Source of the DNA: a virus
Lineage: Duplodnaviria > Heunggongvirae > Uroviricota > Caudoviricetes
IMG/VR virus record: IMGVR_UViG_2925891887_000008
Length of the DNA: 38,557 nucleotides
Strand: one strand, 5' to 3'
Position numbers and translations under genes: made by a program
Notes under the pieces: generated by a model
Seen by the model: the letters and a program-made list of their open reading frames with translations, nothing else
What the model was told of the DNA's origin: nothing
Database searches by the model: none
In this document: in pieces, positions 10,556 to 31,725 of the stretch
Position numbering within the stretch: position 1 is the first letter of the stretch
How the letters are laid out: every line of letters begins with the position of its first letter

Positions 10556-10969
10556 TTATCTGCTTGCAGGGAAAACAGGCCAAATAATATCAGGTGCGGT
10601 GCTGGTATCTGTTGCCGTCACAGCCTCGATATAATCCAGCACAACGTTAAGTCGGGTAGTTTCCTCTTGCGTCAGTTTGCGCCCGGCCTGCAGCTTTAAC
10701 TGAATCACGCTGATATTGACCATTGCTGCGTCTATCAACGACTGTTTTTTCTGTTCAGCGTCAGCTACCAGTTCATCATGAGAACGTTCCGGAGTGGGTG
10801 GTGCAGTAAATACCCCGTCTGAATACGCCCAGCCGATTCCGGGCTGCTCACTGATATCAGAAATATTAATGAGCTGCAGATTATCCGGCACAGTGAATTC
10901 ATCCTCGCCATCCCAGACAATGACATTCACAACCATCCCATTTTCAATAACTGCATATGACGCATTCAT
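10556..10969 (-). CDS. Tail fibre assembly protein
   Basis: ATG MNASYAVIENG... overlaps the stop of the tail fibre gene by 1 nt (TAATG); the track ORF has an upstream TTG extension. Confidence 0.7.
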   Translation of the reverse strand: MNASYAVIENGMVVNVIVWDGEDEFTVPDNLQLINISDISEQPGIGWAYSDGVFTAPPTPERSHDELVADAEQKKQSLIDAAMVNISVIQLKLQAGRKLTQEETTRLNVVLDYIEAVTATDTSTAPDIIWPVFPASR

Positions 10970-12888
10970 TATGCAAACTCCTCGATAATACAAACCCCAT
11001 CAGCACCTTTCCCGCCCGTCATACTGGTTCCGCTATAACCTGCATCGTATGCACCACCTCCGCCTGAACCAAATGCCCTGCCTCTAACGCCACCGCCAGC
11101 GCCTGCGCGTCCACCGCCACCCCAGTACGATGTTCCGCCTTCACCGCTGACGCCGATATTTCCGGACTGACCGTCGCCTCCATCTCCACCAGTGATGCGG
11201 ATATCGCCAGTACTCGGCACACCTCCGTTACCGCCGTTTGTGTTTGTAACACCCACTTTCCCGCCACCTTCGCCACCAGGAGCAATTAACGATGCGAATA
11301 CGCTATTCCCGCCCCTGGTGCCGTTCGTTGCACTAACACCACCGGCCCCACCTGCGCCGATAGTGACTGGATAACTATTCTGTGTCGGGGTCATTATTGA
11401 AATTATTGTTCCACCGGCCCCACCGCCAGCACCGAAAAACGTTTCATTATTGGATGTAGCCTTGCAGCCGCCCCCTCCGCCACCGCCGCCCGTTATTGTG
11501 ACCCTGATCCGTTTTGTTTCTGGTGATGGGGTATACGTACCTGATGACGCGAAAGCCCGGGTACTCAGCCGGCGTCCCACGTATCCGCTTGTATCTCCCA
11601 AACCAAGATAACGAATAACCTCCTGTTTGCTTGTTTTAGCCAGAATATCCCGTCCAACATTAGTCAGGGTTGTCAGGCTGGCTGTATCATTCCCCGTAAA
11701 ATACGGTAGTTTGTCTGCCGCAGTGGCAAGGCCTGCCAGTGCGGTCAGTGTGGCGTCGGCAGGTTGTTTTCCATTGGCAAGGTCATATACAGCCTTCACA
11801 GCTTTTGGTGTGGCAGCCTGCGTTTCTGACGTGCTGTTAGTGGCGCTGCTGAGTTGCACGGTACCTTTTACCGTCAGTGAAGCTGCAGGCACATCCGTTA
11901 TCTGGCTCCACGGGTGCGTGTGACTGACAGGTGCCTTACCTGCTGCAAGGTCATATGCCGCCTTCACTGCCTTTGGTGTGGCAGCCTGCGTTTCTGACGT
12001 GCTGTTAGTGGCGCTGCTGAGTTGCACGGTGCCTTTTACCGTCAGTGAAGCTGCAGGCACATCCGTTATCTGATTCCACGGGTGTGTGTGACTGACAGGT
12101 GCCTTACCTGCTGCAAGGTCATATACAGCCTTCACTGCCTTTGGAGTGGCAGCCTGCGTTTCTGATGTGCTGTTAGTGGCGCTGCTGAGTTGCACGGTGC
12201 CTTTTACCGTCAGCGAGGCTGCAGGTACACCTGTTATCTGATTCCACGGGTGTGTGTGACTGGCGGATGCTTTACCTGCTGCAAGATCATATGCAGCCTT
12301 CACAGCCTTCGGTGTTGCGGCCAGTATTTCGGATTCACTGTTGGTCGCACTGCTTAACTGAGTAAAACCTTTTGCGGTCAGCGAGGCGTCCGGGTGACGT
12401 CGTGACTGTTCGTGCTCTGATATTTTGTCATCCACATACTTGCGGGTTGCCAGCACTACAGCAGGGTCGATTTTCAGGATGATATTGTCCGTACTGCTGG
12501 TAATCAGCACCATGCGCACGGTCTGGGTACGCCCACTGCCTTCAGCCAGTTGCGGCTTATAGCTTTCCGGGCAGTTACCCACGGCAATCAATGCCCCGGA
12601 CTCATCAAACAAGCCCACTTCACGTATCCACCAACCGCCCTCGTTTTCAGGGATCACCTGTTCAGCAATAATCTGGCTGCTGTTCTGCGGGTCGATATAA
12701 AGCATATTCAGCGCAGCCCGGCGTTTCTCATTTACCAGTGCCGTCTGCTTTGCGTCCGGCGTTGGCAATACTCCGCCGCCATCGCCCACCGCCATATGGG
12801 TAATTTTTAGCGGCACACCGAGCGCGGCGGCGCTGGCAAGTTTCGCCGCGCCAATATCCGTCAGCAGGGTATAAAATTTTGTGCTCAT
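10969..12888 (-). CDS. H: Tail fibre protein (P2 H-like N-terminus, internal 56-aa repeats, Gly-rich C-terminal domain)
   Basis: 639-aa ORF; N-terminus MSTKFYTLLTDIGAAKLA... is typical of P2-family H; the C-terminal roughly 170 aa are very Gly-rich. Confidence 0.85.
   Translation of the reverse strand: MSTKFYTLLTDIGAAKLASAAALGVPLKITHMAVGDGGGVLPTPDAKQTALVNEKRRAALNMLYIDPQNSSQIIAEQVIPENEGGWWIREVGLFDESGALIAVGNCPESYKPQLAEGSGRTQTVRMVLITSSTDNIILKIDPAVVLATRKYVDDKISEHEQSRRHPDASLTAKGFTQLSSATNSESEILAATPKAVKAAYDLAAGKASASHTHPWNQITGVPAASLTVKGTVQLSSATNSTSETQAATPKAVKAVYDLAAGKAPVSHTHPWNQITDVPAASLTVKGTVQLSSATNSTSETQAATPKAVKAAYDLAAGKAPVSHTHPWSQITDVPAASLTVKGTVQLSSATNSTSETQAATPKAVKAVYDLANGKQPADATLTALAGLATAADKLPYFTGNDTASLTTLTNVGRDILAKTSKQEVIRYLGLGDTSGYVGRRLSTRAFASSGTYTPSPETKRIRVTITGGGGGGGGCKATSNNETFFGAGGGAGGTIISIMTPTQNSYPVTIGAGGAGGVSATNGTRGGNSVFASLIAPGGEGGGKVGVTNTNGGNGGVPSTGDIRITGGDGGDGQSGNIGVSGEGGTSYWGGGGRAGAGGGVRGRAFGSGGGGAYDAGYSGTSMTGGKGADGVCIIEEFA
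11700..12390. repeat. Four tandem 168-bp (56-aa) in-frame repeats inside the tail fibre gene
   Basis: Repeat unit GGTCATAT(A/G)C(A/C)GCCTTCAC...GGCAGCCTGCGTTTCTGA recurs with period 168 bp at 11781, 11949, 12117 and, more degenerate, 12285. Confidence 0.8.
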
Positions 12889-23792: not shown

Positions 23793-25559
23793 ATGAACAC
23801 CACACTGACACTCGCAGATCTCGATCCCCGTCGGCAGGCCATGCTGCTGTACTTTCAGGGATACCGCGTAGCCCGCATTGCTGAAATGCTGGGCGAGAAA
23901 GTTTCAACCGTTCACAGCTGGAAAAAACGCGACAAGTGGGGTGACTATGGGCCGCTGGATCAGATGCAGCTCACCACCGCCGCACGCTACTGCCAGCTCA
24001 TTATGAAGGAGCACAAAGAAGGGAAAGATTTCAAAGAGATTGACCTGCTGGCGCGCCAGTCGGAACGCCACGCGCGGATCGGCAAGTTTAACAATGGCGG
24101 CAACGAAGCCGACTTAAACCCTAACGTCGCCAACCGCAACAAAGGCCCACGCCGTCAGCCGGAAAAGAACGTTTTCACCGATGAACAGATTGAGAAGCTG
24201 GAAGAAATCTTCCATTCCTCCATGTTCAACTACCAGCGCCACTGGTGGGAAGCTGGAAAAACCAACCGCATCCGCAACCTGCTGAAGTCACGCCAGATCG
24301 GCGCGACCTTTTACTTTGCCCGTGAAGCCCTGATTGACGCCCTGCTTACCGGACGTAACCAGATTTTCCTTTCCGCCAGTAAGGCACAGGCTCACGTCTT
24401 TAAGCAGTACATCATCGACTTCGCTAAAGAAGTGGAGGTGGAGCTGAAAGGCGATCCGATGGTGCTTCCTAACGGGGCCACGCTTTACTTCCTCGGCACC
24501 AATGCCCGCACGGCCCAGAGTTATCACGGCAACCTGTATCTGGATGAATATTTCTGGATACCGAAATTCCAGGAGCTGCGCAAAGTGGCTTCCGGTATGG
24601 CTATTCACAAAAAATGGCGACAAACCTATTTTTCCACGCCATCCAGCCTGACACACAGTGCTTATCCGTTCTGGTCCGGTGCGCTGTTCAACCGTGGGCG
24701 CAACAAAGCCGATAAGGTGGACATCGACCTGTCCCACAGCAATCTGGCCCCCGGCCTGCTGTGCGCAGACGGGCAATACCGCCAGATAGTCACCGTAGAA
24801 GATGCGGTGCGCGGCGGCTGTAACCTGTTCGACCTTGACCAGTTGCGCATGGAATACAGCCCGGACGAATACCAGAACCTGCTGATGTGTGAGTTCGTGG
24901 ACGATCTCGCGTCCGTGTTCCCGCTCAGCGAGCTGCAGGCGTGCATGGTGGACAGTTGGGAAGTCTGGACCGACTTTCATGCACTGGCCCTGCGCCCGTT
25001 TGGCTGGCGCGAAGTGTGGATCGGTTATGACCCGGCAAAAGGTACGCAGAACGGCGACAGCGCCGGATGCGTGGTGGTGGCACCGCCAGCCGTGCCGGGC
25101 GGTAAGTTCCGCATTCTTGAGCGTCACCAGTGGCGCGGAATGGACTTCCGCGCCCAGGCTGACGCCATCAAAAAACTGACCGAACAGTATAACGTGACCT
25201 ATATCGGCATCGACTCGACCGGCGTCGGTCACGGGGTTTACGAGAACGTGAAAGCGTTTTTTCCTGCCGTCAGGGAGTTTGTCTACAACCCCAACGTTAA
25301 AAACGCCCTGGTACTCAAGGCCTACGACATTATCAGCCACCGCCGTCTGGAGTTTGACGCCGGGCACACCGACATTGCGCAGTCATTTATGGCAATCCGT
25401 CGCGCCACCACCGCCAGCGGCAACCGCCCGACCTATGAAGCCAGCCGCAGCGAAGAAGCCAGCCACGCCGATCTGGCCTGGGCAACGATGCACGCATTGT
25501 TTAACGAACCGCTGCAGGGCGAATCCGCCAATACCAGCAATATTGTGGAGATTTTTTGA
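23793..25559 (+). CDS. P: Terminase ATPase (large) subunit P
   Basis: 588-aa ORF; N-terminus MNTTLTLADLDPRRQAMLLYFQGYR... typical of P2-family P. Confidence 0.9.
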   Translation: MNTTLTLADLDPRRQAMLLYFQGYRVARIAEMLGEKVSTVHSWKKRDKWGDYGPLDQMQLTTAARYCQLIMKEHKEGKDFKEIDLLARQSERHARIGKFNNGGNEADLNPNVANRNKGPRRQPEKNVFTDEQIEKLEEIFHSSMFNYQRHWWEAGKTNRIRNLLKSRQIGATFYFAREALIDALLTGRNQIFLSASKAQAHVFKQYIIDFAKEVEVELKGDPMVLPNGATLYFLGTNARTAQSYHGNLYLDEYFWIPKFQELRKVASGMAIHKKWRQTYFSTPSSLTHSAYPFWSGALFNRGRNKADKVDIDLSHSNLAPGLLCADGQYRQIVTVEDAVRGGCNLFDLDQLRMEYSPDEYQNLLMCEFVDDLASVFPLSELQACMVDSWEVWTDFHALALRPFGWREVWIGYDPAKGTQNGDSAGCVVVAPPAVPGGKFRILERHQWRGMDFRAQADAIKKLTEQYNVTYIGIDSTGVGHGVYENVKAFFPAVREFVYNPNVKNALVLKAYDIISHRRLEFDAGHTDIAQSFMAIRRATTASGNRPTYEASRSEEASHADLAWATMHALFNEPLQGESANTSNIVEIF

Positions 25560-26626
25560 TGGGAAAGAGTAAGAAGAACCGCGCTGCGGCGACGAAACAG
25601 ATCCAGCTTAAAAGCCAGACTACAGCCGAAGCATTCAGCTTCGGCGATCCCGTTCCTGTTCTGGACCGCCGAGAACTGCTGGACTATGTGGAATGCGTAC
25701 AGATGGACCGTTGGTATGAGCCGCCCGTCAGCTTTGACGGACTGGCGCGCACCTTCCGCGCTGCCGTGCATCACAGTTCCCCGATTGCAGTAAAGTGCAA
25801 CATTCTGACCAGTACCTATATCTCTCATCCACTGCTCAGCCAACAGGCTTTTTCGCGTTTTGTGCAGGACTATCTGGTATTTGGTAACGCCTACCTGGAG
25901 AAACGCACGAATCGATTCGGTGAAGTTATCGCCCTTGAGCCTGCGCTGGCAAAATACACCCGACGCGGGTTAGACCTGGATACCTACTGGTTTGTGCAAT
26001 ACGGTATGGCCACGCAGCCGTATCAGTTCACGAAAGGCAGCATTTTTCATCTGATGGAACCGGACATCAACCAGGAGATCTACGGCCTGCCCGGTTATCT
26101 TTCAGCCATTCCGTCCGCCCTGCTCAATGAGTCCGCCACGCTGTTCCGTCGAAAGTATTACATTAACGGCAGTCATGCTGGCTTCATCATGTACATGACC
26201 GACGCTGCGCAGAACCAGGAGGATGTGAACAACCTCCGCAACGCGATGAAAAGCGCCAAAGGTCCAGGCAACTTCCGCAATCTGTTTATGTACTCGCCTA
26301 ACGGCAAAAAGGACGGACTTCAGATTATCCCGTTGTCAGAAGTCGCAGCGAAGGATGAGTTTCTGAATATCAAGAACGTGAGCCGCGATGACATGATGGC
26401 TGCGCATCGTGTGCCGCCACAAATGATGGGGATAATTCCCCAGAACATCGGCGGCTTTGGGGATGTAAGCAAAGCAAGTAAGGTATTTGTTCGTAACGAA
26501 CTGACGCCTTTACAAAGGCGAATACAAGAACTTAATGAGTGGCTATGTGACGAGGTTATCAAGTTTGACCCCTACAAACTTGATATTGAAGATAACAATC
26601 ACTCTGCTATCATACCTATCATCTAA
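25556..26626 (+). CDS. Q: Portal protein Q
   Basis: 356-aa ORF overlapping the P stop (ATGA). Confidence 0.9.
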   Translation: MMGKSKKNRAAATKQIQLKSQTTAEAFSFGDPVPVLDRRELLDYVECVQMDRWYEPPVSFDGLARTFRAAVHHSSPIAVKCNILTSTYISHPLLSQQAFSRFVQDYLVFGNAYLEKRTNRFGEVIALEPALAKYTRRGLDLDTYWFVQYGMATQPYQFTKGSIFHLMEPDINQEIYGLPGYLSAIPSALLNESATLFRRKYYINGSHAGFIMYMTDAAQNQEDVNNLRNAMKSAKGPGNFRNLFMYSPNGKKDGLQIIPLSEVAAKDEFLNIKNVSRDDMMAAHRVPPQMMGIIPQNIGGFGDVSKASKVFVRNELTPLQRRIQELNEWLCDEVIKFDPYKLDIEDNNHSAIIPII

Positions 26627-26631
26627 ATTTC

Positions 26632-26655
26632 AACCGCCATCAGGCGGTTTTTTGT
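26632..26655 (+). terminator. Intrinsic terminator after Q
   Basis: AACCGCC-ATCA-GGCGGTT hairpin followed by TTTTTTG. Confidence 0.6.
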
Positions 26656-26710
26656 TTCCAAACCAAACCTACTATGATACACACAGTAGGAAAAAAATTG
26701 GAGCATTTAT

Positions 26711-27337
26711 ATGGATATCGAAAAGCTAAAAGAATTTTACGAAAAACTTTACTTTCAGGAAACGGAAAATAAAGACAAGATTTACAACAGAATTCAAATG
26801 ATATTTGGATTAATAGTAATCGACGCAACTATCGTAACATATCTGCTTAAAAACACATCCTTTGAAAATCATGCATTCTTTGCCTGCATTGTTATAGGAC
26901 TTTCATTATTATCAGTGTTTTTTATTTATAAAGCCTGCATGCTCCTAAAAAAAGCATTTTGGGGTAATGAATTCAAATACATTCCCAAACCTAAGGAAAT
27001 AGACGAATACTACAATGGCCTCATTAAATATGAAGCAGACTATAAAAAATATTGTGATAATAATGGGCTTACCTATAATGGTGAGCACTCATCAAGTAAA
27101 AAGTTCAATGAATACTTAGTAAAACAACTAGTAGAGTGTACTAGTTGGAATACTAAGAAAAATGAAATGAGAACAAGTCAAATATATCGAGCCACTAAAT
27201 TCTTTTTTTTCTCACTAATTCCATTAGTGATAGCGGTTGGCTTTTTTTTAGCGATGGATCTCGATTCAGCCTCGCCAAGGAAGACTAATGAGCCACATTT
27301 CATTATTATACCTGTAGATAATATCAGGAGATTATGA
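26711..27337 (+). CDS. AT-rich cargo membrane protein (208 aa, about three TM helices), unknown function
   Basis: RBS GGAG, ATG at 26711; hydrophobic segments at about residues 30-46, 55-73 and 164-182. Confidence 0.5.
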   Translation: MDIEKLKEFYEKLYFQETENKDKIYNRIQMIFGLIVIDATIVTYLLKNTSFENHAFFACIVIGLSLLSVFFIYKACMLLKKAFWGNEFKYIPKPKEIDEYYNGLIKYEADYKKYCDNNGLTYNGEHSSSKKFNEYLVKQLVECTSWNTKKNEMRTSQIYRATKFFFFSLIPLVIAVGFFLAMDLDSASPRKTNEPHFIIIPVDNIRRL

Positions 27338-27462
27338 TGGGAAAAGCCCCTACACCTAACAAGCCACCAGCGAAGACTCCAACTCCGCCGACACCGCCGA
27401 CACCGCCTAAATCTAGGCTAGTGAGAGACGATGATTCGAAAGCCAAAAGCAAAAGAGGTTAA
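27334..27462 (+). CDS. Proline-rich micro-protein a (42 aa; KTPTPPTPPTPPK core, SRLVRD motif)
   Basis: ATG overlaps the upstream stop (ATGA), RBS AGGAG; 9-bp in-frame repeats. Confidence 0.4.
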   Translation: MMGKAPTPNKPPAKTPTPPTPPTPPKSRLVRDDDSKAKSKRG

Positions 27463-27468
27463 AGTATC

Positions 27469-27642
27469 ATGATAAAGCCCAGCAACGAAGGAACTGGAAA
27501 ACCAAATTCTACAAGTAAATCACCTGTACCGCCTCAGCCGCCTCAGCCGCCTCAGCCGCCTCAGCCGCCTCAAACAAGGTTAGTACGAGAAAGCTTTGGA
27601 GAATACATTTCAAAGAGAGATACGAAAAATGACAAAAAATAA
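27469..27642 (+). CDS. Proline-rich micro-protein b (57 aa; (PPQ)5 core, TRLVRE motif)
   Basis: RBS AGAGG, ATG at 27469; (CAGCCGCCT)x4 tandem repeat. Confidence 0.4.
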   Translation: MIKPSNEGTGKPNSTSKSPVPPQPPQPPQPPQPPQTRLVRESFGEYISKRDTKNDKK

Positions 27643-27736
27643 CGAGCAAAAACCACCACCACCACCACCACCACCACCACTACCACCATCGTCCCGCATG
27701 CTATTTGATCACGCGGCCCCCCCTAAGAAGAAATAA
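27629..27736 (+). CDS. Proline-rich micro-protein c (35 aa; P9-L-PP core, SRMLFD motif)
   Basis: ATG at 27629 overlapping the end of b; (CCA)n tract. Confidence 0.35.
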   Translation: MTKNNEQKPPPPPPPPPLPPSSRMLFDHAAPPKKK

Positions 27737-27778
27737 CCTTAAGCCTGCGACTTAGCAGGCTTTCTTCATTAGCGCGCG

Positions 27779-27797
27779 CTCGTATCCCCGCCACGCC
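27779..27797. other. Candidate cos site (19-nt cohesive end)
   Basis: CTCGTATCCCCGCCACGCC closely resembles my recollection of the P2/186 cos core (complement GGCGTGGCGGGGA...); lies between Q and A as expected. Confidence 0.35.
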
Positions 27798-28139
27798 TGC
27801 CCGCTTTATGTAGTGGTTTTCATGCAGGTGCATGATCTACGCAAAAGCCCGCCAGTTCTGGCGGGCCTTAGCAAAAACGATCCTCAAACGATCATGCAAT
27901 CTCATGCAGCATAGACATGCACAGACGAGTAAAGCGAATCGGACTTTACGCAAGGTGAACTCCTCAGCGGGCATAATCAGTATGTCGGAAGATCTCTAAA
28001 AATGAATAATTCGGTTAACAGGTATGCTTACAAAAGCATATATTTGATTAAAAATCATGTAAGGGGGAGGATCTCAAACTGAATCGCCACGGGTTTTACA
28101 AATTTCGATAGTCTCTCTAACGTTTCGGCTGAGGTCAAA

Positions 28140-28565
28140 ATGAAAAGCTTTTACGTATTAATTTTAATTCTGGTTGCAAGCTTTGTTAGCGTCCCAGTTC
28201 AGGCGGTAACAGCTAAAAACTATGAGAAAGGAACTAAAGCTCAACAGAAATCAATATCTTACCTTTCATGTGCATTCTATGGCAGTAGCACACAATTAGA
28301 TCCTAGCTACACGGAGCAAGTACCTACAGCCGATATCAAGATATTACAGAAAGCAGCTTACCACGCTTACAACGATGCGCTCTCATACTTTGGCTATGAG
28401 GAACCAGATCACGAACAACGCATAATTGATTATGCTGAATTTGTGGCGTCGCAAGAAGCTGTGTTATGGGATAAGCCGGGAATGAATGGAAAGCAGGTAA
28501 CACTAATTGCTCGTTCTCTCTACAATGAGAGTAACTGTAACTTGTTACTGGACTCAATTAAGTAG
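28140..28565 (+). CDS. AT-rich cargo secreted protein (141 aa, Sec signal peptide), unknown function
   Basis: RBS GAGGT, ATG at 28140; N-terminal hydrophobic signal with ...VQA/V cleavage-like site. Confidence 0.5.
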   Translation: MKSFYVLILILVASFVSVPVQAVTAKNYEKGTKAQQKSISYLSCAFYGSSTQLDPSYTEQVPTADIKILQKAAYHAYNDALSYFGYEEPDHEQRIIDYAEFVASQEAVLWDKPGMNGKQVTLIARSLYNESNCNLLLDSIK

Positions 28566-29310: not shown

Positions 29311-31725
29311 TTAATACAGGTTTCGCCACTTATCATCTTCCTGCAAACGCTGGTTCCGATAGAAGATACGCAGGCCTGCTCCTGACGGAATACTGCCGCC
29401 GCGAAGGAGTAAATCGACCTCTTTCTCGCTGCCATTAAATCCTCTGGACTTCAGTTCATAGACGAGCTGCTGTCGCTGATGGTCTGTAATTCGCTGTTTG
29501 TAGTCTTTACGCCGTTTCGGTTTCACCAGGCGTAACCTTGCAGCCAGTTCCCGGCGCTCTTTTTTGCTCATACTGTGCAGGTAATCGTGCAACTCCTTGT
29601 CATCCATGCGGGTAATGTCCGTCCTAGTATCCCCATCAGCTGATTTGTCTTTCCCTTGTTGGTTCAAATTTTCAGCAAGGGGACAGTTATTGCCACGAGT
29701 CCAAGGGGCGCAAGCGCCCTGGTCGGCTGCCGCCTCCTGAACGTCAACGGCCTTACGAACCATTTTCCACTTCACCGCATGAGTGCAGATCTTGCCCTCT
29801 GCAATGGGTGACCAGATGCCATAAATACGAATACCGTGATCGCCATATGCGGTCGGTTCTTCGTTGATTTCATAAGCAGTTCTGATGAGGTGATATTTGC
29901 GGGGAACCAGTACGCCTCCCTGCTTCATGATGTAGGTGGCAAAACAACCAGCATCGGCAGCAGCCAGGATTGCATCAAGGCGCGGGTTATCCAGTACCGG
30001 CGCACCTGCTTTTTTGTCCCCCTGTTGCCTTGCCGCCTGACCAGCCAGCAATCGCAGTTCACGGTAAGCCTGACGCCCCGGAATGCCAAAGAAGCGGAAT
30101 TGCTGAACACGATGCAGAGACGCCCAGGCATTAACGTATTCAGCGTTATCACGCAGGGATTTACCCGTTTCCTTGCTGATCTCGCCAGCCAGACCACGCC
30201 CGTCAATGTTCTTACTGATGTATTTCGCGATGTAGCTTGTTGGCGTACCTTTGCGCGGGTTTATCAGCTCAGACTTAAAGCGTGGTCCCGTGTTATTACC
30301 CAGCTCCTCGCGGTCTTCACGAATGGCAAACTTACGCAACAAAGCAGTAATGGTGCGGCGATCTTTTTTGCGCATAAAACACAACAGGTGCCAGTGAACT
30401 GTACCGTCATGATGCGGCTCAGCCACCCGCACGCCATACCAGCGCAATCCGGCTTTGTGCATCGCCTTACGAAATGCAGCAAACATGCCGACCAGATAAT
30501 CACTGCTTTGTCTTACCGTCGTATTTGTCCAGGTCGGGTTGGGCCTGCCGTTATTTAGCGTGGAATGGAAACGTGACGGACAGGTGATGGTGTAGAAAAC
30601 GGCGCAGTCACCGCGCATTTCCGCGATAAGCTCCAGACCTTTAACACAGGCCATCATCTCATTGCGGCGATGCGCAGGGTTGCTGCTGCTGGCGTTTACC
30701 ACATCCTCCATGTCCAGCGTGTCGCCGTCTTCGTTCACCAGTTCATGAGAACGGAAAAACTCCAGCGACTTACGGCGCTGCTCACGTTTATGCATCATGG
30801 CTTCATAGCTGACATAGGGAGATGCTTTTTTGCTGACCAGGCAAACAGCACGCAACTGCTCTTCCCGCCATTCGCAACGCATCTTCCATAATTTCCGGTA
30901 CCACCAATCGGCGCACAACATACGCGCCAGCGAACCCGGAATGAGTTCATAGGGCACGGGTTTACGGCGGTTTCTTTTCCGGCGGAGTTGCTCAAACGCA
31001 GGCGGTATGACATCCAGTCGCAGGGTTTCTGCTGCCACCTTTTCCCATGTCTTGCGGATTTCTTCTGGCTTAACGTCATCGGTGGCATACAAATCGCCAC
31101 AAGCTGCATCAAGGCACATGCTCATATGCGCAGCAACAAGGGTGGACAGGCGTTTCACCTGATCCTGACTCATTTCAGGCAGAATCAGCAGGCCGTCCAG
31201 CCCTTCATGGCTTGCCATAAAGCGAAAAGAAGTGGATAGCTGACTGTCGCGTACATGCTCCAGCCGTTCCAGACATGGCTTAATCGTCTCACGTAAATAG
31301 CGGGAATAAGCCTTTGGCCTGCCAAGGCTGCTGAAGTATTCAATACGTTGCATCAGCGGCCTGCTGATATGGGAAGGCTGGGCGTTAACGTCTGCCAGAA
31401 TGACCATGTCCGGGTTAAAACGCTGCTGCTCATGCGCCAACTTTGCCCGGCTAATGAACTTATCCTGCTCCATTTCGCGCTGGACAGGATCACGGGATTC
31501 ATTAAAGAAATAACGCTCCCAAACCTGATCACTCAGTGCCTCGCGGCGCAGTTGTTCCTGCTCGTTATCGGCAGCGTACAGAGTGATCAGGTTTGAAAGC
31601 GCAGAAACCGGCGCAACTTCCGCCGGGTCCAGATAAGGGTTAATAGCCTTTTTCGGGCTGTTCCATGAGAATGCTGCGGCGGCCTCGTTAAAGCCGCTGC
31701 AGTTGTTCATATCAGCATGGCTCAT
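29311..31725 (-). CDS. A: Replication initiation endonuclease A (rolling-circle)
   Basis: 804-aa ORF at the P2 gene A position, upstream of cos. Confidence 0.85.

What the first reader, a model, noticed from the sequence alone, without database searches (positions are those of the whole stretch)
27380..27700. In-frame 9-bp and 3-bp microsatellites encoding polyproline tracts, including an 11-proline-class run
The proline cores are encoded by tandem DNA repeats: ACACCGCCG units in ORF a, (CAGCCGCCT)x4 in ORF b, and a (CCA)n tract in ORF c. All are in-frame multiples of three, so slippage would change repeat length without breaking the frame, giving scope for length polymorphism. Consecutive prolines are established ribosome-stalling motifs requiring EF-P, so ORF c in particular should be translated only when EF-P is functional.
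Basis: partly seen in the sequence, partly recalled or inferred. Interest (0 to 1): 0.55.

Follow-up and report, generated by a model that had tools for sequence, protein, structure and literature searches.

The report
Polyproline micro-genes beside a prophage membrane protein
The proline-coding DNA repeats are real and vary in length between strains, and they lie in three unannotated small genes whose proline-rich peptides probably dock onto the membrane protein encoded next to them, in a variable, defence-gene-rich spot of a P2-like prophage.

Summary
Three in-frame repeats are present: 9 bp x2.6, 9 bp x4.9 and CCA x12. They encode TPP, PPQ and P9-L-PP tracts in three small + strand ORFs (a 42 aa, b 57 aa, c 35 aa).

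The predicted length polymorphism is real. Among 14 near-identical E. coli copies, ORF b carries 3, 4, 5 or 6 PPQ units, ORF a gains one unit once, and ORF c gains one CCA once.

The ORFs are real genes that PGAP misses. Their dN/dS is 0.14-0.20, their start and stop codons overlap in a conserved way, and they follow every sequenced relative of the upstream 208-aa three-helix membrane protein down to about 31% identity.

Each peptide has a polar N-terminus, a proline tract, then R-hydrophobic-hydrophobic-x-acidic and a basic tail. In many distant homologues the same module is fused to the membrane protein's C-terminus but keeps its own Shine-Dalgarno and ATG. AlphaFold2 docks that motif, as a beta-strand, onto the conserved WGNxFKYxP segment.

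The cassette is low-GC cargo between portal gene Q and cos, in the known P2 gpA-gpQ defence hotspot. Its function is untested. I infer a membrane effector controlled by peptide ligands. EF-P dependence is plausible for ORF c but unproven.

The parts
26632..26649 (+). Intrinsic terminator after portal gene Q (Q stop at 26626). It separates the late PQ operon from the cassette.
   Evidence: 7-bp stem with 5 GC pairs, followed by TTTTGTTT.
26711..27337 (+). Gene for the 208-aa membrane protein ('body'). It has hydrophobic helices at about 28-46, 51-80 and 160-188 and a helical soluble bundle. The conserved segment WGNEFKYIP (residues 84-93) is the predicted peptide-docking site.
   Evidence: invariant W84 G85 N86 F88 Y90 P94. 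(AF2 pLDDT 93). (hydropathy). (1160 homologous clusters). (weak PADLOC 2TM/PycTM/SLATT hits). No Pfam family.
27334..27462 (+). ORF a, 42 aa: MMGKAPTPNKPPAKTPTPPTPPTPPKSRLVRDDDSKAKSKRG. Its ATG overlaps the body's TGA stop (ATGATG), and AGGAG lies upstream.
   Evidence: Orthologues in L014, L019 and L025-L036. dN/dS 0.12 against L014.
27385..27407 (+). 9-bp repeat CCGCCGACA x2.6, encoding the (PPT)n part of ORF a. L005 has one extra unit.
27469..27642 (+). ORF b, 57 aa: ...SPVPPQPPQPPQPPQPPQTRLVRESFGEYISKRDTKNDKK.
   Evidence: dN/dS 0.12 against L014. b-type peptides are called as hypothetical proteins in Enterobacter and Klebsiella records.
27529..27572 (+). 9-bp repeat CCGCCTCAG x4.9, encoding (PPQ)5. 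Alleles with 3, 4, 5 and 6 units occur among E. coli genomes.
   Evidence: P0169 is the 3-unit allele, found on 13 contigs.
27629..27736 (+). ORF c, 35 aa: MTKNNEQKPPPPPPPPPLPPSSRMLFDHAAPPKKK. Its start overlaps the 3' end of ORF b by 14 nt.
   Evidence: R, F, D and H of the R-x-x-F-D-H motif are invariant in 9 orthologues. dN/dS 0.04-0.27 in the pairs where it could be computed.
27652..27688 (+). (CCA)9 CTA (CCA)2 microsatellite encoding P9-L-PP. L004 has one extra CCA.
27634..27639 (+). A6 run at the ORF b stop / ORF c start overlap. Loss of one A in L004 fuses b and c into an 86-aa ORF. This may be a real allele or a homopolymer sequencing error.
27741..27762 (.). Bidirectional intrinsic terminator hairpin that closes the cassette, 5 nt after the ORF c stop.
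27767..27830 (.). cos region of the P2-like prophage. It bounds the cassette and is not part of it.
   Evidence: This is the only part of 26600-27830 shared with hundreds of P2-like phages and prophages, and it is annotated as the cos site in phage Cartapus.

Best explanation
The three repeat-bearing ORFs are real, translationally coupled small-protein genes. They are paralogous copies of one peptide module: a polar N-terminus, a proline tract, R-hydrophobic-hydrophobic-x-Asp/Glu, then a basic tail. This module belongs to the upstream 208-aa three-helix membrane protein. Body plus 2-3 such peptides is the conserved unit in every relative whose DNA I could read. In many distant homologues the first peptide is fused in frame to the body's C-terminus but keeps its own Shine-Dalgarno and ATG.

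Inferred from an AlphaFold2 model of a fused homologue: the R-hydrophobic-hydrophobic motif binds, as an added beta-strand, to the conserved WGNxFKYxP segment just after the second membrane helix. The proline tract would act as a stiff polyproline-II spacer whose exact length is weakly constrained. That is why slipped-strand changes of 3, 6 or 9 bp are tolerated and accumulate as in-frame length alleles.

Inferred from context only: the cassette is horizontally acquired cargo of the P2 gpA-gpQ/cos hotspot. It most likely acts in phage exclusion or abortive infection, with the membrane protein as effector and the peptides as its bound regulators. The long proline runs probably make peptide supply sensitive to EF-P and translation capacity, but that is a side prediction, not something shown here.
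For: Real genes:
- dN/dS for a+b+c is 0.14 (window vs L014), 0.20 (L019 vs L026) and 0.19 (L034 vs L035).
- Every length difference at the repeat tracts, and every length difference among the compared orthologues, is a multiple of three; only two homopolymer-run deletions in single assemblies (L003, L004) break a frame.
- Proline codons differ synonymously between homologues while proline is kept.
- The overlaps are conserved: a 4-nt ATGA overlap between body and ORF a, and a 14-nt overlap between b and c.

Linkage to the body:
- All 14 IMG/VR loci, plus the Serratia, metagenome and 216-aa-type E. coli loci, carry the peptides (a locus cut short by its contig end shows only the first). So do the 39%-identical (L041) and 31%-identical (L042) short forms.

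Same module in fused form:
-. In 55 of 67 long homologues an in-frame Met sits at the start of the module.
- GGAG lies 6-7 nt upstream of that Met in L039/L040 and L043, and GGGG in L037. A further separate peptide ORF follows in L039/L040 and L043.

Docking:
- AF2 of P0163 gave mean pLDDT 87. The linker (190-220) is disordered, but the tail (221-250) has pLDDT 81-94.
- The only two beta-strands in the model are 87-90 (after the F/W-G-x-x-Y motif) and 235-238 (R-V-I-K).
- In the tail-less window protein the equivalent segment 84-93 is an unpaired coil.

Polymorphism.

Cargo status:
- GC is 30-35% against 53-60% in the phage core, and terminators flank both sides.
- The cassette is present in 13 of 1271 E. 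coli genomes that share the cos sequence.
- The hotspot is described in PMC9122126 and PMC9519451.
- PADLOC membrane-effector models give weak hits.
Against: - No experiment or database annotation gives a function. Pfam, NCBIfam, PDB sequence search and three fold searches are all silent or generic.
- The docking rests on one single-chain AF2 model, and I could not inspect its coordinates or run a multimer prediction.
- There is a topology conflict. In the AF2 body model, helix 1 and helix 3 enter the membrane from the same face. The C-terminus should therefore emerge on the face opposite the docking segment, and a fused tail could not reach it in a membrane-embedded monomer. The conflict disappears only if the free, internally initiated peptide is the true ligand, or if helix 3 does not span the membrane.
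- The PADLOC hits are far weaker than family level (E 1e-4 to 3e-6, few members).
- The defence role is guilt by location. The P2 hotspot also carries non-defence cargo (PMC9122126).
Confidence: 0.55

Rival explanations
1. EF-P or translation-capacity sensor (an extension of the first reader's idea). The main point of the proline runs would be to make the peptides hard to translate. The peptides would act as labile antitoxin-like inhibitors of the membrane protein. When an infecting phage, or stress, impairs translation or EF-P, they would no longer be replenished, and the membrane effector would fire (abortive infection).
For: - P6-P12 runs recur in the c-type and b-type peptides across lineages, even though polyproline is selected against in E. 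coli proteomes and is not fully rescued by EF-P (PMC5811046; PMC4176338).
- The peptides are translationally coupled to the body.
- The body resembles membrane effectors weakly.
Against: - Several orthologues have interrupted tracts with only diprolyl units: window ORFs a and b, and L035 (PQPPKPPVPPP, PPSSPQPPQAP). Strong stalling is therefore not conserved.
- No toxicity or lability data exist.
- No phage is known to me that targets EF-P.
Confidence: 0.2
2. Adaptive contingency locus. The microsatellites would be selected as such, to generate peptide-length variants at high rate. This would retune the specificity or threshold of the system in an arms race with phages.
For: - Repeat copy number is almost the only polymorphism in an otherwise identical 1.1-kb cassette, with four ORF b alleles.
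- Independent perfect repeats arose in different lineages: (CCA)9 and (CCGCCTCAG)5 here, and a perfect (CCGCCT)4 in one Serratia locus with a longer, imperfect version of it in another.
Against: - Most homologues encode the tract with mixed proline codons that are poorly slippery. High mutability is therefore not a conserved property.
- All repeat-unit changes are in frame, so there is no on/off switching.
- Variation is equally expected from neutral slippage in a length-tolerant spacer.
Confidence: 0.12
3. Envelope-spanning or secreted role. The proline-rich segments would act in the periplasm like TonB/TolA rods or the proline-rich Rz1 spanin partner. This reading is suggested by the fused forms, where the tail follows the third membrane helix.
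For: - The AF2 helix layout predicts that the C-terminus lies on the membrane face opposite the soluble bundle.
- Fused homologues have 40-110-aa coiled-coil-like linkers before the tail.
Against: - Peptides a, b and c have no signal peptide, lipobox or hydrophobic segment. Their maximum Kyte-Doolittle 19-residue mean is -0.5 to -1.0.
- The fused tails keep their own SD and ATG, which argues for a free cytoplasmic product.
- AF2 docks the tail on the same side as the soluble bundle.
Confidence: 0.07
4. The peptides are themselves the effectors: intracellular analogues of proline-rich antimicrobial peptides that bind the ribosome exit tunnel or DnaK. The membrane protein would be an immunity or export partner.
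For: The peptides are short, basic and proline-rich with Arg after the tract. This is a superficial resemblance to oncocin/apidaecin-type peptides, recalled from my own knowledge.
Against: - No sequence match to any known family.
- The conserved part is the R-hydrophobic-hydrophobic-acidic strand, which AF2 pairs with the body, not PRP repeats.
- The long acidic/basic C-terminal tails are unlike proline-rich antimicrobial peptides.
Confidence: 0.04
5. The ORFs are spurious, and the repeats are non-coding DNA near cos, for example packaging or structural DNA elements.
For: - PGAP does not annotate them in any of 13 genomes.
- They lie within 40-450 bp of cos.
Against: - dN/dS is 0.14-0.20.
- The reading frames, starts, overlaps and peptide motifs are conserved down to about 31-39% body identity and outside P2-like contexts.
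- The same module is part of an ORF in fused homologues.
- Most P2-like phages lack the segment entirely.
Confidence: 0.02

Closest known systems
SLATT-type / 2TM membrane effectors of CBASS, Pycsar (PycTM) and RT-associated defence systems
   Same: A small helical membrane protein with an N-terminal helix plus a TM hairpin and a cytoplasmic helical region. It is located in a defence hotspot. PADLOC models 'Effector 2TM', 'PycTM' and 'RTasSLATT' give weak hits.
   Different: No Pfam SLATT hit. There is a third hydrophobic helix. No nucleotide cyclase, reverse transcriptase or other sensor gene is adjacent. Instead there are 2-3 proline-rich micro-peptides, which those systems are not known to have.
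Phage holin/antiholin dual-start genes (lambda S105/S107)
   Same: A phage-borne small membrane protein whose gene yields two nested translation products that are thought to regulate each other (the holin comparison is from my own knowledge). Here, fused homologues keep an internal SD and ATG.
   Different: The internal start here lies near the 3' end and would yield only the soluble C-terminal peptide. There is no sequence or fold relationship. P2-like phages already have their own lysis genes elsewhere.
EF-P-dependent polyproline proteins such as CadC, and the E. coli polyproline motif set
   Same: Runs of three or more prolines that stall ribosomes and need EF-P. A proposed role is tuning protein output (PMC5811046, PMC4176338; the CadC example is from my own knowledge).
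   Different: The runs here are much longer (9-12). They sit in 30-60-aa peptides encoded by microsatellites. Any regulatory use is untested.
Simple-sequence contingency loci of Haemophilus and Neisseria
   Same: Intragenic tandem repeats whose copy number differs between closely related isolates through slippage.
   Different: The units here are 3 and 9 bp, so the changes alter peptide length and do not switch the gene on or off.
Other cargo of the P2 gpA-gpQ/cos hotspot (old, tin, retrons, PARIS-like and uncharacterised systems)
   Same: Same insertion region, low GC, patchy distribution and own terminators.
   Different: This cassette sits on the Q side of cos. It is listed only as 'hypothetical' in Rousset et al., Table S5A. 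I found no report of it being tested. Its small genes were invisible to annotation-based surveys.

Membership tests
In-frame coding microsatellite with population length polymorphism | A perfect or near-perfect tandem repeat lies inside an ORF, with a unit that is a multiple of 3. | tested here: met
   TRF; ORFs.
In-frame coding microsatellite with population length polymorphism | Copy number differs among otherwise near-identical sequences. | tested here: met
   ORF b has 3, 4, 5 or 6 units; ORF a has +1; ORF c has +1. Searches show the same in other lineages.
Phase-variable contingency locus | A repeat change shifts the frame or the promoter spacing, giving on/off expression. | tested here: not met
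   The units are 3 and 9 bp, and all observed repeat changes keep the frame. Only the A6 and C7 homopolymer indels in single genomes shift the frame, and these may be sequencing errors.
EF-P-dependent polyproline stalling motif | Three or more consecutive prolines (a strong PPP-class motif). | tested here: met
   ORF c has P9. ORFs a and b have only PPT/PPQ diprolyl units.
EF-P-dependent polyproline stalling motif | Protein output falls in efp mutants, or ribosomes pause at the motif. | not testable with these tools
   This needs reporter fusions or ribosome profiling.
SLATT / 2TM defence effector | A significant match to the family's sequence models. | tested here: inconclusive
   No Pfam SLATT hit at E<0.01 for 26 members. 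PADLOC 2TM/PycTM/RTasSLATT hits reach only E=2e-4 to 3e-6, in 1-2 members each.
SLATT / 2TM defence effector | Genomic association with a signal-generating partner (CD-NTase, pyrimidine cyclase, reverse transcriptase, TIR). | tested here: not met
   The neighbours are portal/cos, an integrase, or TA genes, and no such enzyme appears in any of the neighbourhoods examined.
P2 gpA-gpQ hotspot cargo (moron) | Lies between portal gene Q and replication gene A next to cos. It is variable among P2-like prophages and atypical in composition. | tested here: met
   (13 of 1271 cos-bearing genomes).
Toxin-antitoxin / abortive-infection module | One component is toxic, and the other neutralises it or provides phage-triggered release. 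| not testable with these tools
   This is a context-based inference only.
Proline-rich antimicrobial peptides | Sequence relationship to known families and PRP-type ribosome-binding motifs. | tested here: not met
   No family hit for a, b or c. The conserved motif is R-hydrophobic-hydrophobic-x-acidic.

The most novel reading that the evidence does not exclude
A previously undescribed, widespread family (about 1160 clusters at 50% identity) of defence or exclusion modules. In this reading, a pore-forming three-helix membrane effector is held in check by 2-3 co-encoded polyproline micro-peptides that clamp onto it by beta-strand addition. Because the peptides are among the hardest sequences for a ribosome to make, the module would read out the cell's translation and EF-P capacity and fire when a phage compromises it. 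Microsatellite slippage would tune the threshold.
Probability: 0.12. Interest if true: 0.85.

Novelty: new variant of a known kind. Interest (0 to 1): 0.55.

Why it matters
- It shows that three conserved genes are missing from standard annotation in a heavily mined defence hotspot. Surveys based on annotated proteins have therefore seen this cassette as a single 'hypothetical' gene.
- It defines an uncharacterised membrane-protein family with an unusual partner: tandem polyproline peptides, sometimes fused but still separately initiated.
- It gives a concrete, testable binding model (R-hydrophobic-hydrophobic strand onto WGNxFKYxP).
- It offers natural length alleles and P9-P12 runs as ready-made probes of how EF-P-dependent translation affects a mobile-element function.
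- If the module proves to be an anti-phage system, it would add a new regulatory logic. If not, it is still a clean example of length-tolerant proline spacers evolving by slippage.

Tried and rejected
- Two scans of GTDB species-representative genomes found nothing: the profile patterns and a degenerate gapped DNA pattern for WGN...DLDxxSPRK. I therefore have no named-organism census beyond Enterobacteriaceae hits.
- The INPHARED phage collection holds no homologue of the body by tblastn.
- Pfam, NCBIfam and PHROGs give no functional name.
- Rfam finds nothing credible in 26400-28300, so an RNA-element reading was dropped.
The b-type profile worked.
- I considered a leader-peptide or attenuator role for the proline ORFs. 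I rejected it because nothing lies downstream except a terminator and cos.
- I considered collagen-like or triple-helix assembly of the 3-residue repeats. I dropped it because there is no Gly periodicity.
- I considered that the minus-strand ORFs across the repeats (poly-Val, poly-Gly/Ala) or the PGAP pseudo-CDS might be the real genes. I rejected this because conservation follows the + strand frames.
Full report
**Setting**

The window is a P2-like prophage of E. coli.
- The + strand carries the terminase ATPase gene (23793-25559) and the portal gene Q (25556-26626; Pfam Phage_portal).
- The - strand carries the replication endonuclease gene A (29311-31725) and a DinI-like gene.
- The only part of 26600-27830 shared with hundreds of P2-like phages and prophages is about 27767-27830. 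This stretch is annotated as the cos site in phage Cartapus.
- The finding therefore lies between Q and cos. This is inside the gpA-gpQ/cos region that Rousset et al. (PMC9122126) and Vassallo et al. (PMC9519451) describe as a hotspot of variable, often anti-phage, cargo.

**Checking the observation**

Tandem Repeats Finder reports three repeats:
- CCGCCGACA x2.6 at 27385-27407.
- CCGCCTCAG x4.9 at 27529-27572.
- A 3-bp ACC/CCA tract x12.3 at 27652-27688.

They account for 3 of only 10 repeats in the whole window. They sit in three + strand ORFs:
- a, 27334-27462, 42 aa.
- b, 27469-27642, 57 aa.
- c, 27629-27736, 35 aa, taking the ATG that is conserved in orthologues.

The encoded tracts are TPPTPPTPP, (PPQ)5 and P9-L-PP. 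The P9 run is the longest proline run in any frame of the window.

**Length polymorphism**

Thirteen of 5426 complete E. coli genomes carry the whole 1.2-kb segment at 98-99% identity. I fetched all 13 and aligned them with the window.

Between 26710 and 27810 the sequences are almost identical. The differences are:
- One SNP in the upstream gene.
- One 2-nt substitution.
- Repeat copy numbers. ORF b has 3 units (L005), 4 units (11 loci), 5 units (the window) or 6 units (L001). ORF a has one extra unit in L005. ORF c has one extra CCA in L004.
- Two homopolymer indels. An A6 run in L004 loses one A, which fuses b to c. A C7 run in L003 loses one C, which changes the C-terminus of c. These may be real or may be long-read sequencing errors.

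Other lineages show the same behaviour:
- Serratia ORF c has P8 or P12, encoded by a perfect (CCGCCT)4 in one locus and a longer, imperfect version of it in the other.
- The 216-aa-type cassette has P6, P7, P8 or P9 in ORF b.

**Are the ORFs genes?**

PGAP annotates none of them. In some genomes it places a pseudo-CDS or an antisense ORF there instead. The evidence that they are genes is strong.

1. The upstream 208-aa ORF (26711-27337) has relatives at 75%, 58%, about 50% and 47% identity in metagenomes, Serratia, other E. coli P2-like prophages and IMG/VR contigs. Every locus whose sequence reaches far enough downstream has the same small ORFs immediately after it. The Serratia loci have only the b and c types.
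2. Nei-Gojobori dN/dS for a+b+c is 0.14 (window vs L014), 0.20 (L019 vs L026) and 0.19 (L034 vs L035).
3. Proline codons differ synonymously between homologues while the prolines are kept.
4. Gene organisation is conserved. The ATG of a overlaps the stop of the 208-aa gene (ATGATG, with AGGAG upstream). The ATG of c lies 14 nt inside the end of b in all enterobacterial versions. In L034-L036 the overlaps are 4 and 8 nt. This is the signature of translational coupling.
5. Each of the three has its own conserved post-proline motif:
   - a-type: R[RL][IV]V[IR][ED]DDSKA.
   - b-type: R[LM]V[RQ]E[SG][YF].
   - c-type: R-x-[AVL]-F-D-H, with R, F, D and H invariant in 9 sequences.

   They are therefore three old, non-redundant paralogues.
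6. b-type peptides are called as hypothetical proteins in some Enterobacter and Klebsiella records.

**The wider family**

A profile search of 1.84 billion cluster representatives found 1160 clusters at E<=1e-3 and 341 at E<=1e-10. No Pfam or NCBIfam family covers them.
- About a quarter of the top hits are 205-210-aa 'short forms' like the window protein.
- Many others are 250-310 aa and end with the same module after a 40-110-residue linker. Examples are ...MSDKKPPPPPPQAPARPIARVFNDE......MAKEQPTPPPPPPPPPKRVIKED... and ...MTDEKNERPDPPPPQPPAEPEPRRIIED....
- In 55 of 67 such long forms an in-frame Met sits exactly at the start of the module.
- Where DNA was available, that Met is preceded by a Shine-Dalgarno sequence: GGAG 6-7 nt upstream in L039/L040 and L043, and GGGG in L037. 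A further, separate proline-rich peptide ORF with its own SD follows in L039/L040 and L043.
- More distant short forms carry three (L041) or two (L042) separate peptides.

The conserved unit is therefore 'body plus 2-3 proline-rich peptides'. The first peptide is sometimes fused but apparently still initiated separately.

**Structure**

AlphaFold2 on the window protein, with a 62-sequence alignment, gave mean pLDDT 93.
- The model has four long helices: 3-48, 55-83, 94-117 and 128-181.
- The hydrophobic halves (about 28-46, 51-80 and 160-188) form a three-helix membrane bundle. The rest forms a soluble bundle.
- Residues 84-93 (WGNEFKYIPK), the most conserved stretch in the family, are an unpaired coil.

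AlphaFold2 on the fused homologue P0163, with 53 sequences, gave mean pLDDT 87.
- The linker (190-220) is disordered, but the tail (221-250) has pLDDT 81-94.
- The only two beta-strands in the model are 87-90 (the equivalent of FKYI) and 235-238 (R-V-I-K, directly after the P9 run). DSSP assigns a strand only when it has a hydrogen-bonded partner, so these two must pair with each other.
- I infer that the post-proline motif of the peptides docks by strand addition onto the WGNxFKYxP segment.

I could not inspect the coordinates or run a multimer prediction, so this step is an inference.

One problem remains. The helix layout puts the body's C-terminus on the membrane face opposite the docking segment, so a fused tail could not reach it in a membrane-embedded monomer. 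A free peptide made from the internal start would solve this. Alternatively, helix 3 may not span the membrane.

The peptides themselves have no hydrophobic segment or signal sequence, which argues that they are cytoplasmic.

**What the cassette is likely to do**

- It is flanked by the Q terminator (26632-26649) and a bidirectional terminator (27741-27762).
- Its GC content is 30-35% in the body gene, against 53-60% in the phage core.
- It is present in only 13 of 1271 E. coli genomes that share the cos sequence.
- Homologues elsewhere sit next to a prophage integrase or among TA/Fic genes.
- PADLOC models for membrane effectors ('Effector 2TM', PycTM, RT-associated SLATT) give weak hits to several members (E 2e-4 to 3e-6). 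None reaches family level, and no cyclase or reverse transcriptase is adjacent.
- Fold searches against PDB and BFVD are uninformative.
- Rousset et al. list the protein (WP_048237166) only as 'hypothetical' in their hotspot table.
- I found no paper describing proline-rich peptides in such a system.

My best reading is a phage-exclusion or abortive-infection cargo, in which the membrane protein is the effector and the peptides are its bound regulators. That functional step rests on context only.

**The proline tracts and EF-P**

At protein level a proline tract before the Arg is universal. Its length (about 5-12 prolines) and purity vary widely, even between close relatives. In some orthologues it is interrupted (PQPPKPPVPPP, PPSSPQPPQAP).

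This fits a stiff polyproline-II spacer with weak length constraint. Perfect microsatellites arise and decay on such a tract by slippage: (CCA)9 and (CCGCCTCAG)5 here, (CCGCCT)n-type in Serratia, and mixed codons elsewhere.

It is established that PPP stalls ribosomes, that EF-P relieves this incompletely, and that polyproline is under-represented in E. coli (PMC4176338, PMC5811046). A P9 run in a 35-aa peptide should therefore be strongly EF-P-dependent. ORFs a and b, with PPT/PPQ units, should be much less so; the ranking of those units as weak stallers is from my own knowledge. Context dependence (PMC4176338, PMC4140641) and backup factors (EfpL, PMC11611912; ABCF proteins, PMC11162784) make 'only when EF-P is functional' too strong. 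Whether this dependence is used as a signal, for example as a translation-capacity sensor, is an attractive but untested rival.

**Verdict**

- The more interesting result is that the repeats mark three unannotated, conserved micro-genes. These belong to a large, uncharacterised family of membrane-protein/peptide cassettes found in a phage defence hotspot.
- Function and mechanism remain inferred.

Noticed in passing
window 11777-12322: A 168-bp tandem repeat x3.2 (92% match, TRF score 917) lies inside the 639-aa minus-strand ORF 10969-12888, probably a tail-fibre-type gene. A GCCGCCACC x2.7 repeat lies nearby at 11467-11490.
   Followed up: no
window 28140-28565 (+): A 141-aa protein with an N-terminal signal-like sequence (phrog_7437, E=4e-99; WP_000834899) lies on the other side of cos. 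In Rousset et al., Table S5A, it occurs in more than 30 hotspot loci with many different partners, so it is independent of the proline cassette.
   Followed up: partly
window about 27723-27905 (-); loci L001-L012: PGAP annotates a minus-strand 'hypothetical protein, internal stop' pseudo-CDS across the cos region (an intact CDS, WP_071779272, in L005). In L004 it also annotates an antisense ORF (WP_222701163) over ORF b. It misses ORFs a, b and c in all 13 genomes. These annotations look spurious.
   Followed up: partly
L004 (NZ_CP082120) and L003 (NZ_CP034404); window 27634-27639 and 27717-27723: Loss of one A in the A6 run fuses ORFs b and c into an 86-aa ORF. Loss of one C in a C7 run rewrites the last residues of ORF c. 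I cannot tell whether these are real frameshift alleles or homopolymer sequencing errors.
   Followed up: partly
window 26668-26690: A 9-bp-stem inverted repeat (CCTACTATGATACACACAGTAGG) lies between the Q terminator and the start of the 208-aa gene. It could be an operator or a minus-strand terminator. No convincing sigma-70 promoter for the cassette was found between 26650 and 26710.
   Followed up: no
homologues P0015-P0165; loci L037, L039, L040, L043: Long-form homologues keep an in-frame Met (55 of 67) at the start of the fused proline-rich tail. In the four loci with DNA, an SD-like element (GGAG or GGGG) precedes it. This implies nested translation products from one ORF.
   Followed up: yes
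AF2 models of window 26711-27334 and of P0163: There is a topology conflict. The predicted C-terminus of the body lies on the membrane face opposite the conserved docking segment, yet the fused tail is modelled docking there.
   Followed up: partly
window 27350-27800: The region shows strong strand asymmetry (GC skew down to -0.35, AT skew up to +0.44), caused by the C/A-rich proline-coding tracts.
   Followed up: no
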